From positions 942-64,941 of the forward strand of contig CAYZUL010000005.1 of assembly GCA_964481895.1 (NCBI GenBank): a stretch of DNA of 64,000 bases. The letters are read 5' to 3'. Source of the stretch: an uncultured Nitrospirota bacterium. Lineage in GTDB: Bacteria > Nitrospirota > Nitrospiria > JACRHA01. The position numbers were made by a program, and so were the translations under genes. The notes under the pieces were generated by a model. That model was given only the letters and a program-made list of their open reading frames with translations. It was not told the DNA's origin and searched no databases. Below, piece by piece: positions 17,109-20,219 of the stretch; the stretch's first letter is position 1; each line of letters opens with the position of its first letter.

Positions 17109-20100
17109 ATGGATAACATGGACAATAAAGAGCAATATAAATCCTTTTTAAAGGAGCATTATCCCTTTAATTTAATTCCTGATCAAATTGTTAATGATCT
17201 GATCTCCTGCATCAAGGAAGAGCATTATGGCACAGGCCAGACTATTTACCGAAAGGGTGAAGATGGGGGCATCTTTAGTATTATCCGTACTGGTGAGGTG
17301 TACGAATTAATTACGGACAAGAATGGGGAGGAGATTATCGTTTCGCTTCTCCGCGAGGGGAACTGTTTTGGCGCGATATCTGTATTAACAGGCGAGCCCC
17401 ATTCAGTAACAACAAGGGCAAAGGGGGATGTGGAGCTATTTGTCATAGAAAGGGGGGATCTGGAGGCATTGCTCTCCCGCCATCCCTCCCTCAATAAATA
17501 TCTGACACGGATCCTCACTGAGAAGATAAGAAACCTATTCCTCTTCTTTGAGACAGAAGGGATAAGGGTATTTGAAAAGGCAAGGAGCATAGATGAGAAG
17601 GAGAGGGAGATCTCATTTCTCAACAGGATTACCAACCTGATCGGTTCTAAGGAGGATTATGAAAAGCTCCTTGATACCATAGTCAGCGAGGTCCGGGGAT
17701 ACACGGGTGCAGATGTATGCTCTGTCTATCTGCTGGATCCGATAACAAACGAACTGATTCTGGAGGCGGCAGACGGTGTAGGGGAGGGGATGGTAAGAAA
17801 GATAAAGATGGATCTCTCCCAGGGGATCACCGGATGGGTTATCCGGAATAGCGAGCCCGTTGCAGTATATGATATCCATAAGGATCCCAGGGTGCATATT
17901 ATCTCTGATATCCAGGAGGATAGGTTAAAGTCGCTTTTATCCCTGCCTCTTGTCATAAGGGGGAAAAGCATAGGCGCACTCAACCTGGCTAATGTGAACT
18001 ATAGGGACTATTCATATAATGATATTCAGAGCATGGGGATTATTGCCAATCATATAGCCATGGCTATCTCAAATTTCAGATTGCGGAAGAGGATATTTGC
18101 CGCCACTGGAGTTTCAAGTTCACGATTGGGCGGGCTGGATCATTTTGTCGGTGAAACAAGTTATGTGAGGGGCATAAACAGATTTATAGATCTGAATGCA
18201 CAGTATGACGGGCATGTCCTCTTAAAAGGAGAAGAGGGGACGGGGAAGCATCTCCTGGCATCGCTGATTCATAGAAGGAGCAGGCGGGCAAAGGGGGCTT
18301 TTATAACAGTAGACTGCGAATCAATCCGAAAGGAATCGTGGGGAGAAGAGCTCTTTGGTGATGACCGGGATCCATCATCGGGTGAGATTTCGTTCGGGTT
18401 TCTTGAACTGGCCCATGGCGGGACTATCCTCTTGAGAAATATAGAGTCGCTTAATCAGGCGAATCAGATAGCCATCTACAAGTTCCTGAACGACGGGCGG
18501 TTTGTCCGGGTGCACGGACACGATACGATCTACTCAAACACCAGGGTTATTGCCACTGTTAATGGAGACACAAAGACTGATGACAGGATAGATCTGAACA
18601 AGGAACTTTATGATCTTCTATCAGCAAACTCATTTTCTATGGTACCCCTCAGGAAGATGCGTAAGGACATACCTGTTCTTTCCACACACCTCTTAAAAAA
18701 TATCAATGACGAACTCCATAAAGGGATCATGGAGATATCAGGGAACGCCATGGAGAGACTTTTGAGCTATGACTGGCCGGGGAATGTTCTTGAGCTTGAG
18801 AACGTCTTGAGAAGGGCGGTAATCCTTGCCAATGAGGGAACGATACTCTCCAATCAGATATTTTTCGGCATCCCCAGGATAGAGAAGAGATGGGAGTTTA
18901 ATCTGTTTTCAATAGAACCAATAAAAAGATTTTTCTACACAACTCGCCTTCAAAAGGGGGTCCAGGTCGCAGCCATAATAATCATGTTTTTTGTAATCTA
19001 CTCCCTCATCTCGCATAAAGGGACTGGATATAGTCTCACAAATATCATGCTATGGTCTTTCGGTTGGTTCGGCCTTTTTGTCTCTGCCTTCTCTATCGGG
19101 AGGATATGGTGCGCTGTGTGTCCATTTTCAAGTTTCGGGGAATTTCTTAAAAGGATAAAGCAGAAGAAGATTCCGATCCCAAGCGATGCGGGCAAAAGGA
19201 GCGAGAAATACCTTGTCGGACTGATACTCCTTGTGCTTTTTGCAGAGGGTATCACTGTGATGCCTGCCGTTCCATTCTATACAGGACTGCTTATACTATT
19301 TATACTGATCGGGGCCATAGTATCTTCAATCCTTTATGATAAGAGGGTCTGGTGCCGGTACCTATGCCCGCTTGGCGGATTATTAGGGATCTACTCCCTT
19401 GCGTCCTTTGTAACGATAAAGGCTAACAGAAAGCTCTGTTTGAGTCAGTGCACGACACATGAATGTTATCTCGGCAGGGATGGGATGGAGGGGTGTCCAA
19501 TGCTCCTTCACCCCTATGGTGTTGAAAACAGCCAGAACTGCACCCTTTGCGGCAGTTGCGTCAGGGCATGCGGGCACAACTCGCTTCGCCTTTCCCTCCA
19601 CCTCCCGACTACGGGGGTAGAGGATATAGATATATTCAGCCTCCCCTTTTCATTTCTTGCCTCTGCCCTGGCAGGAATTTTATTGGTAGAGAACGGCTCC
19701 ATACTTTCAAGGACGTCATCCTTGTTTAGATACATAAATGATATAATAAAGATAGATCCAAACATCCTCTATGCAATAGTTTTCATTGGAGTAATGACTC
19801 TCCCTTTTCTGTTAATTATCTCCTTAGACCTATTGATGAACAGATGGTCTAAAGAGGGGATAAAGGAGTACCTTGCCAATCTGCCTTACTCTTTCATGCC
19901 TCTTGCTTTGCTTGGGCATATAGCCCTCTATGGGAAGGAGCTTATCTTAGATCTGCCAAAGATTGGTAATATTGTCATGGAAAGGATAGGGATTACGATG
20001 ATATTCCCGCCTGTAGGCGTAAAAGGTCAGACATGGGTGGAGATATTGCAGGTACTCCTTGTTGTCTTTGGTGCGGCAGAGAGTATATACCTTCTTTTCA

Positions 20101-20219
20101 GGATCTATAAGAAATCAGAACATAAGAACCTGCCAAAGAGGAGGACATTGCCGATCTATGTCGGGATGATATTGTTCTTTGCGGTCATCTATATGGTATC
20201 GTTCCTTGGTATGTCATAA
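17109..20219 (+). CDS. Unusual fusion: cNMP-binding + GAF + sigma54-interaction AAA+ domain (degenerate GAFTGA, no HTH) + NapH/CcoG-like membrane polyferredoxin
   Basis: Single 1036-aa ORF. A CAP-type cNMP-binding domain sits at aa 20-140 and a GAF domain at aa 170-320. The AAA+ domain has Walker A GEEGTGKH, but the loop where GAFTGA is expected reads DPSSGE. The last ~430 aa have about 8 TM helices with two NapH-type CxxCP/CxxxCP motifs (CAVCP, CRYLCP) and 4Fe-4S motifs (CTLCGSCVRAC; CLSQCTTHEC). Confidence 0.8.
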   Translation: MDNMDNKEQYKSFLKEHYPFNLIPDQIVNDLISCIKEEHYGTGQTIYRKGEDGGIFSIIRTGEVYELITDKNGEEIIVSLLREGNCFGAISVLTGEPHSVTTRAKGDVELFVIERGDLEALLSRHPSLNKYLTRILTEKIRNLFLFFETEGIRVFEKARSIDEKEREISFLNRITNLIGSKEDYEKLLDTIVSEVRGYTGADVCSVYLLDPITNELILEAADGVGEGMVRKIKMDLSQGITGWVIRNSEPVAVYDIHKDPRVHIISDIQEDRLKSLLSLPLVIRGKSIGALNLANVNYRDYSYNDIQSMGIIANHIAMAISNFRLRKRIFAATGVSSSRLGGLDHFVGETSYVRGINRFIDLNAQYDGHVLLKGEEGTGKHLLASLIHRRSRRAKGAFITVDCESIRKESWGEELFGDDRDPSSGEISFGFLELAHGGTILLRNIESLNQANQIAIYKFLNDGRFVRVHGHDTIYSNTRVIATVNGDTKTDDRIDLNKELYDLLSANSFSMVPLRKMRKDIPVLSTHLLKNINDELHKGIMEISGNAMERLLSYDWPGNVLELENVLRRAVILANEGTILSNQIFFGIPRIEKRWEFNLFSIEPIKRFFYTTRLQKGVQVAAIIIMFFVIYSLISHKGTGYSLTNIMLWSFGWFGLFVSAFSIGRIWCAVCPFSSFGEFLKRIKQKKIPIPSDAGKRSEKYLVGLILLVLFAEGITVMPAVPFYTGLLILFILIGAIVSSILYDKRVWCRYLCPLGGLLGIYSLASFVTIKANRKLCLSQCTTHECYLGRDGMEGCPMLLHPYGVENSQNCTLCGSCVRACGHNSLRLSLHLPTTGVEDIDIFSLPFSFLASALAGILLVENGSILSRTSSLFRYINDIIKIDPNILYAIVFIGVMTLPFLLIISLDLLMNRWSKEGIKEYLANLPYSFMPLALLGHIALYGKELILDLPKIGNIVMERIGITMIFPPVGVKGQTWVEILQVLLVVFGAAESIYLLFRIYKKSEHKNLPKRRTLPIYVGMILFFAVIYMVSFLGMS

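What the first reader, a model, noticed from the sequence alone, without database searches (positions are those of the whole stretch)
17109..20219. One gene fuses an enhancer-binding-protein-like sensor/ATPase to a NapH-type membrane iron-sulfur protein
One uninterrupted 1036-aa reading frame joins a CAP-type cNMP-binding domain, a GAF domain and a sigma54-activator-type AAA+ domain to a C-terminal ~430-aa polytopic membrane domain. The membrane part carries two NapH/MauN/CcoG-style CxxCP/CxxxCP motifs and two [4Fe-4S] ferredoxin motifs. Where the sigma54-contacting GAFTGA loop should sit the sequence reads DPSSGE, and no C-terminal Fis-type HTH is present. The protein is therefore unlikely to act as a classical transcriptional activator. 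A small-molecule- and cNMP-sensing AAA+ motor wired directly to a quinol/ferredoxin-type membrane redox module is, as far as I know, an undescribed architecture. It could gate or remodel a membrane electron-transfer complex in response to cyclic nucleotides or redox state.
Basis: partly seen in the sequence, partly recalled or inferred. Interest (0 to 1): 0.85.

Follow-up and report, generated by a model that had tools for sequence, protein, structure and literature searches.

The report
Dead AAA+ sensor fused to membrane iron-sulfur module
The gene is real and belongs to a large family that no paper I could find describes, spread from anaerobes to cyanobacteria, in which a catalytically dead relative of sigma-54 transcription activators is fused to a NapH-like iron-sulfur membrane domain, so it is probably a membrane redox switch or sensor rather than a transcription factor or an ATP-driven motor.

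Summary
Window 17109..20219 (+) is one 1036-aa ORF. It encodes a cNMP-binding-type domain, a GAF domain, a sigma-54-activator-type AAA+ domain with its lid, and a roughly 450-aa membrane domain. The membrane domain has nine helices, CxxCP and Cx3CP motifs and eight further invariant cysteines. There is no HTH.

The fusion is not an assembly artefact. Full-length relatives occur in Nitrospirota and Scalindua. The core AAA+-membrane fusion occurs in at least 126 cluster representatives, in 59 of the 80 genome loci kept, in complete genomes of isolates, and at 70-82% identity across cyanobacteria.

The interpretation needs correcting on two points:
- The AAA+ domain is not a motor. Walker B DE is RN here and is canonical in 0 of 107 relatives. 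Both arginine fingers, the sensor-II arginine and GAFTGA are gone, while the P-loop lysine is kept. dN/dS for this domain is 0.06, so it is a conserved pseudo-ATPase.
- The cNMP pocket of this member lacks the two key contact residues (Ala89 and His98 instead of Glu and Arg).

The membrane part is only distantly NapH-like (48 bits against a cutoff of 213) and matches no solved fold. No partner gene is conserved.

Best reading: a self-contained, ligand-controlled membrane iron-sulfur/quinone-linked redox module. The direction of signal flow is unresolved.

The parts
17109..20219 (+). Whole gene, 1036 aa plus stop. Monocistronic, flanked by genes on the opposite strand. The start may be Met4 at 17118.
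   Evidence: The alignment with P0001 begins at the Met4 equivalent. No sigma-54 -24/-12 motif lies upstream.
17220..17483 (+). CRP/PKA-type cyclic-nucleotide-binding fold, residues 38-125. The phosphate-binding cassette at 17364-17411 reads CFGAISVLTGEPHSVT, with Ala89 and His98 in place of the cNMP-contacting Glu and Arg.
   Evidence: Pfam PF00027, E 1.8e-18. Alignments to PKG/PKA domains. Family census against CRP.
17652..18068 (+). GAF domain, residues 182-320. Present only in the Nitrospirota/Scalindua-type branch of the family. It is the most constrained segment of the gene (dN/dS 0.03).
   Evidence: Pfam. Nearest solved GAF domains are those of PtsP, PDE2A and CyaB2. dN/dS. Architecture census.
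18153..18857 (+). Sigma-54-activator-type AAA+ domain with lid, residues 349-583, catalytically degenerate. Walker A GEEGTGKH (18228-18251) is kept. The L1 position reads DDRDPSSGE (18345-18389) instead of GAFTGA. Walker B reads ILLRN (R443/N444, 18435-18440) instead of hhhDE. The arginine-finger stretch reads LNKELYDLL (18591-18620). Sensor II reads GNVLELEN (18771-18803), without the arginine.
   Evidence: Pfam and NCBIfam. Residue-by-residue alignment to 3dzd, 9qq6 and 1ny5. Census of 107 relatives and of 120 cyanobacterial relatives. dN/dS 0.064.
18858..18956 (+). Conserved short linker and amphipathic pre-membrane helix, residues 584-616 (FFGIPRIEKRWEFNLF...IKRFF). Its second half is also the N-terminus of the stand-alone membrane proteins.
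   Evidence: F585, G587, P589, E592, K593, W595 and F597 are invariant in A1. P0091 starts with the same element. Helix at C-terminal-model residues 18-25.
18957..19379 (+). NapH-like four-helix membrane module, residues 617-757. Its two cysteine motifs lie at the cytoplasmic ends of TM2 (RIWCAVCP, 19101-19127) and TM4 (RVWCRYLCPLGG, 19344-19379).
   Evidence: PF12801, two stretches. NapH/MauN TIGR02163 at 48 bits. BLASTP to E. coli NapH. Topology. Conservation.
19419..19613 (+). Cytoplasmic ferredoxin-like domain, residues 771-835, with eight invariant cysteines, enough for two [4Fe-4S] clusters. The first motif has unusual spacing, Cx3Cx4C...x9CP.
   Evidence: Weak Fer4 hits. The cysteines are 98-100% conserved. 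Aligns to both NapH cluster motifs. dN/dS 0.057. The model is least confident in this region.
19632..20210 (+). Family-specific C-terminal extension of five transmembrane helices, residues 842-1034. It matches no Pfam family. Only P931, L932 and G988 are conserved across the family, and no conserved histidine pair could ligate haem.

Best explanation
What it is (shown). The gene encodes a member of a large protein family for which I found no publication and no dedicated profile model. The N-terminal sensor domains are a CNB-type fold in most members, with an added GAF domain in this branch. They are followed by an AAA+ domain that derives from bacterial enhancer-binding proteins. That domain has lost the sigma-54 contact loop and every catalytic residue for ATP hydrolysis, yet it usually keeps the P-loop. 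A short conserved linker joins it to an integral-membrane domain. The membrane domain consists of a NapH-like four-helix module with two cytoplasmic Cx(2-3)CP motifs, a cytoplasmic two-[4Fe-4S]-type ferredoxin domain, and five more helices. The gene stands alone and has no conserved partner gene.

How it most likely works (inferred). It is a one-protein switch. In true enhancer-binding proteins the N-terminal domain controls assembly and activity of the AAA+ ring. Here that logic is probably kept, but the ring no longer burns ATP. At most it binds a nucleotide as a structural or allosteric ligand. Its output would be the arrangement or conformation of the attached membrane iron-sulfur modules. 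Ligand binding to the GAF or CNB-like domain would therefore switch electron exchange between the membrane quinone pool and cytoplasmic iron-sulfur clusters on or off. The same wiring could run in reverse and report the redox state of the pool; that version is listed as a rival.

In this member the CNB pocket is non-canonical, so the ligand is probably not cAMP or cGMP bound in the usual way.
For: Architecture and motifs.

The fusion is ancient and selected:
- The identical order is found in Nitrospirota and Scalinduaceae at 41-92% identity.
- Of 167 proteins examined, 126 carry AAA+ fused to the membrane domain. The commonest form is cNMP-AAA-MEM of about 860 aa.
- 59 of the 80 kept genome loci are fused. 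They include the complete genome of Desulfosediminicola flagellatus IMCC35005.
- 256 relatives of the cyanobacterial copy score E <= 1e-20. The 120 listed, nearly all named ones cyanobacterial, are 69-100% identical to it (mostly 70-82%).
- In a rough NJ tree the stand-alone membrane proteins mostly form one clade and the fused forms make up the rest.

Pseudo-ATPase:
- Walker B DE is canonical in 0 of 107 relatives; the second position is mostly Asn or His.
- The Walker A lysine is kept in 89 of 107.
- Arginine fingers, the sensor-II arginine and GAFTGA are absent.
- The cyanobacterial branch shows the same pattern: GTGKT kept, LLL[DN]N, L1 deleted.

Not decaying: dN/dS against the 92% relative is 0.064 for AAA+, 0.031 for GAF, 0.057 for the ferredoxin part and 0.27 for the helices.

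No operon partner:
- The gene is monocistronic in the window and in Scalindua.
- Conserved neighbours in Desulfobulbales are housekeeping genes.
- No sigma-54 promoter motif lies upstream (1 of 57 loci; 4 loci had a hit in the control stretches).

Redox role of the membrane part:
- PF12801/NapH-like proteins are described as quinol-linked membrane electron-transfer modules (PMC8238504).
- PMC5928378 describes the shared module of NapH, NosR and RdhC as four membrane segments with two CX3CP motifs.
- The loops predicted to face the periplasm are short and no periplasmic domain was detected, so any electron path should run between the membrane and the cytoplasm.

Precedent for the control logic: in NorR a GAF domain represses the AAA+ domain (PMC2941729, abstract listed).
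Against: - No experiment exists on any member, so the mechanism rests on domain logic alone.
- The full-length model was useless (pLDDT 42.9). Ring formation and domain coupling are therefore untested.
- Cofactor content (clusters, nucleotide) is inferred from motifs only.
- 18 of 107 relatives also lack the Walker A lysine, so nucleotide binding cannot be general.
- No electron donor or acceptor is identified.
- CNB and GAF are input domains, but the NapH-like module could equally be a second input rather than the output.
- Multiple paralogs per genome (L042, L052, L059) and frequent two-component genes nearby (20 of 61 loci) fit a pure signalling protein better than an enzyme.
Confidence: 0.42

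Rival explanations
1. The signal flows the other way. The NapH-like iron-sulfur membrane domain senses the redox state of the quinone pool, or oxygen, NO or sulfide. The dead AAA+ domain is the output and acts through protein-protein contact. It might co-assemble with active enhancer-binding proteins and so sequester or poison them at the membrane, or it might hold another partner.
For: - NosR, NirI and RdhC, the nearest characterised relatives of the membrane module, were first described as regulators (PMC5928378; the NCBIfam NosR model is named 'transcriptional regulator').
- 20 of 61 fused loci have histidine kinases, response regulators, NtrC-type EBPs or Crp genes within 5 kb. Three Desulfomonile-type loci have a kinase and a canonical EBP directly upstream on the same strand.
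- Several paralogs per genome is typical of signalling proteins.
- Hetero-hexameric EBPs exist, for example HrpR/HrpS (PMC7057263).
- The L1 loop is conserved within branches but differs between them; Scalindua has a roughly 25-aa acidic insertion. That pattern could reflect different partners.
Against: - The family is conserved at 70-82% identity across cyanobacteria. By established knowledge cyanobacteria have neither sigma-54 nor canonical EBPs, so sequestering EBPs cannot be the general function.
- Two-component genes are very abundant in Desulfobacterota, and I computed no background rate for their proximity.
- Two dedicated input-type domains (CNB, GAF) at the N-terminus would be left without an obvious role.
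- No partner gene is conserved.
Confidence: 0.24
2. A cNMP-gated, ATP-hydrolysing AAA+ motor mechanically gates or remodels a membrane electron-transfer complex.
For: The AAA+ fold, the lid and an intact P-loop are present. The domain sits between sensor domains and a membrane redox module.
Against: - Walker B is RN instead of DE.
- Both arginine fingers and the sensor-II arginine are replaced.
- 0 of 107 relatives, and none of the commonest variants among 120 cyanobacterial relatives, have a catalytic Walker B.
- The substrate-engaging L1 loop is degenerate or deleted.
- The cNMP-contacting Glu and Arg are Ala89 and His98 in this member.
Confidence: 0.04
3. A constitutive membrane oxidoreductase or cofactor-handling protein, for example a cytoplasmic thiol/sulfur-linked quinone reductase. 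The N-terminal domains would be mainly structural relics rather than switches.
For: - Stand-alone membrane-domain proteins of 430-480 aa exist in many lineages, so the domain can function alone.
- In cyanobacteria a CysK-like PALP gene lies directly downstream in 4 of 8 loci. Those islands also hold DsrE, rhodanese, glutaredoxin, DsbA and TauE genes.
- The function of the Cx3CP motifs (thiol chemistry or a cluster) is unknown even in NapH (PMC5928378).
Against: - The GAF and AAA+ domains are the most strongly constrained parts of the gene (dN/dS 0.03 and 0.06). That does not fit relics.
- No cysK gene lies next to any of the 80 non-cyanobacterial loci.
- The sensor complement varies by lineage, as expected for input modules.
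Confidence: 0.12
4. A classical sigma-54 transcriptional activator that happens to be membrane-anchored, or an assembly or frameshift artefact joining two ordinary genes.
For: Databases name it 'sigma 54-interacting transcriptional regulator'. The best NCBIfam match is NifA, at 193 bits against a cutoff of 529.
Against: - No GAFTGA, no ATPase residues and no HTH_8.
- No -24/-12 promoters nearby.
- The family is present in cyanobacteria.
- The junction is conserved in more than 100 independent sequences, including complete genomes, and the linker is under purifying selection.
Confidence: 0.02

Closest known systems
Atypical enhancer-binding proteins: VpsR, TyrR, PhhR, HupR, HsfA, NtrX
   Same: Their AAA+ domain is homologous to that of sigma-54 activators but lacks GAFTGA. 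Some also have non-consensus Walker B residues; VpsR has Asn-Asp (PMC6158489). VpsR and NtrX structures are among the PDB matches (7v2b, 5m7n).
   Different: All of them keep a C-terminal DNA-binding domain and act as soluble transcription factors with sigma-70 polymerase. Here the DNA-binding domain is replaced by a nine-helix iron-sulfur membrane domain. The degeneration also goes further: the arginine fingers and sensor II are lost as well.
NapH / MauN (quinol dehydrogenase ferredoxin subunit, TIGR02163)
   Same: A four-helix membrane module with two Cx(2-3)CP motifs on the cytoplasmic side, followed by two cysteine clusters of [4Fe-4S] type. BLASTP to E. coli NapH gives 28% identity over 80 residues, spanning the second motif and both clusters.
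   Different: - It scores 48 bits against a cutoff of 213.
- There are no napG/napA neighbours.
- The first cluster motif is Cx3Cx4C instead of CxxCxxC.
- It has five extra C-terminal helices.
- It has about 600 residues of cytoplasmic sensor and AAA+ domains in front.
NosR / NirI / RdhC (PceC)
   Same: The same PF12801 membrane module with two CX3CP motifs. NosR also has two C-terminal [4Fe-4S] motifs. All were historically suspected of regulatory roles (PMC5928378, PMC8238504).
   Different: Those proteins carry an N-terminal periplasmic, covalently flavinylated FMN-binding domain and sit in nos, nir or rdh clusters. This protein has no FMN-binding domain and no detectable periplasmic domain. 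Its NosR score is E 4.8e-5, 22 bits against a cutoff of 1000.
NorR / NifA / FhlA type GAF-AAA+ activators
   Same: A GAF domain sits directly in front of the EBP AAA+ domain. NifA is the best NCBIfam match over residues 167-586. In NorR the GAF domain represses the AAA+ domain (PMC2941729).
   Different: Those are active ATPases with GAFTGA and an HTH. This protein has none of the three.

Membership tests
Bacterial enhancer-binding proteins (sigma-54 activators) | Central AAA+ domain of the PF00158 type with the AAA_lid_14 lid | tested here: met
   PF00158 E 7.9e-26 and PF25601 E 1.1e-18. PDB matches to NtrC4, NifA and NtrC1 at E 1e-35 to 1e-37.
Bacterial enhancer-binding proteins (sigma-54 activators) | GAFTGA motif in loop L1 that contacts sigma-54 | tested here: not met
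   The position reads RDPSSG. Among the 107 relatives no GAFTGA was listed; the nearest variant listed is GAFAEA (GAFSFS and GAISFA in P0090 and P0092). The loop is deleted in the commonest variants of the 120 cyanobacterial relatives.
Bacterial enhancer-binding proteins (sigma-54 activators) | Catalytic ATPase residues: Walker B Asp-Glu, arginine fingers, sensor-II arginine | tested here: not met
   R443/N444 replace Walker B DE. LNKELYDLL replaces FRxDLYYRL. GNVLELEN replaces GNVRELEN. 0 of 107 relatives have DE. Activity itself was not measured.
Bacterial enhancer-binding proteins (sigma-54 activators) | C-terminal Fis-type HTH (HTH_8). Usual but not universal. | tested here: not met
   No PF02954 hit at E <= 1. 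The C-terminus is a membrane domain.
Bacterial enhancer-binding proteins (sigma-54 activators) | Sigma-54 in the genome and -24/-12 promoters as targets | not testable with these tools
   Only a 64-kb window is available. It has no TGGCAC-N5-TTGC site. That cyanobacteria, which carry the family, lack sigma-54 is established knowledge and was not tested here.
NapH/MauN family (TIGR02163, PRK09477) | Four-helix membrane module with two Cx(2-3)CP motifs, plus two C-terminal [4Fe-4S]-type cysteine motifs | tested here: met
   The first cluster motif has non-canonical spacing. Actual cluster binding was not tested.
NapH/MauN family (TIGR02163, PRK09477) | Score at or above the curated family cutoff | tested here: not met
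   48.1 bits against 213 (TIGR02163) and 42.1 against 234 (PRK09477).
NapH/MauN family (TIGR02163, PRK09477) | nap or mau operon context, with napG and napA adjacent as in E. coli | tested here: not met
   Window neighbours are HemW-like, GGDEF-EAL and MNT/HepT genes. No nap genes appear in any related locus examined. The E. coli context is shown.
NosR/NirI/RdhC | N-terminal periplasmic FMN-binding domain with a flavinylated threonine | tested here: not met
   No FMN_bind hit. The N-terminus consists of cytoplasmic CNB, GAF and AAA+ domains.
CcoG/RdxA/FixG (TIGR02745) | Family-level profile match and a C-terminal periplasmic FixG_C domain | tested here: not met
   E 0.16, 10.9 bits against 316.7. 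No FixG_C hit.
cAMP/cGMP-binding CNB domains (CRP, PKA, PKG) | Phosphate-binding cassette with the Glu and Arg that hold the ribose and the cyclic phosphate | tested here: not met
   The fold is present (PF00027), but the cassette has Ala89 and His98. 25 of 76 relatives keep both residues. Binding was not measured.
CNB-(GAF)-pseudoAAA+-NapH-like membrane family (no published name found) | Collinear fusion of a degenerate EBP AAA+ domain, a conserved linker, a nine-helix domain and twelve invariant cysteines | tested here: met

The most novel reading that the evidence does not exclude
The family could be a new class of membrane signalling device. A ring-forming enhancer-binding-protein AAA+ domain would have been turned into a non-hydrolysing, possibly adenine-nucleotide-sensing, allosteric hub. 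That hub would couple small-molecule sensors directly to a quinone-linked iron-sulfur membrane module. Bacteria from anammox planctomycetes and Nitrospirota to cyanobacteria would then have a post-translational switch that gates or reports electron flow between the membrane and the cytoplasm, independent of sigma-54 and of transcription.
Probability: 0.3. Interest if true: 0.85.

Novelty: new variant of a known kind. Interest (0 to 1): 0.62.

Why it matters
Enhancer-binding-protein AAA+ domains are treated as dedicated sigma-54 activators. The known exceptions are still DNA-binding transcription factors. Here the same domain has been stripped of catalysis and of the sigma-54 contact, and it is welded to an iron-sulfur membrane module.

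The family is conserved under strong purifying selection in hundreds of species. Those species include cyanobacteria, which have no sigma-54. Databases mislabel these proteins as 'sigma 54-interacting transcriptional regulators' or 'nitrogen assimilation regulatory proteins', and that label misleads regulon reconstructions.

If the protein links ligand or energy sensing to quinone-pool redox chemistry, it would be a new type of one-component control over respiratory or photosynthetic electron flow. The NapH/NosR-type module has no solved structure and its Cx3CP motifs have no known role, so this family would also be a tractable route into that module. Cultured carriers exist for experiments: Desulfosediminicola flagellatus, Nostoc, Pseudanabaena and Nodosilinea.

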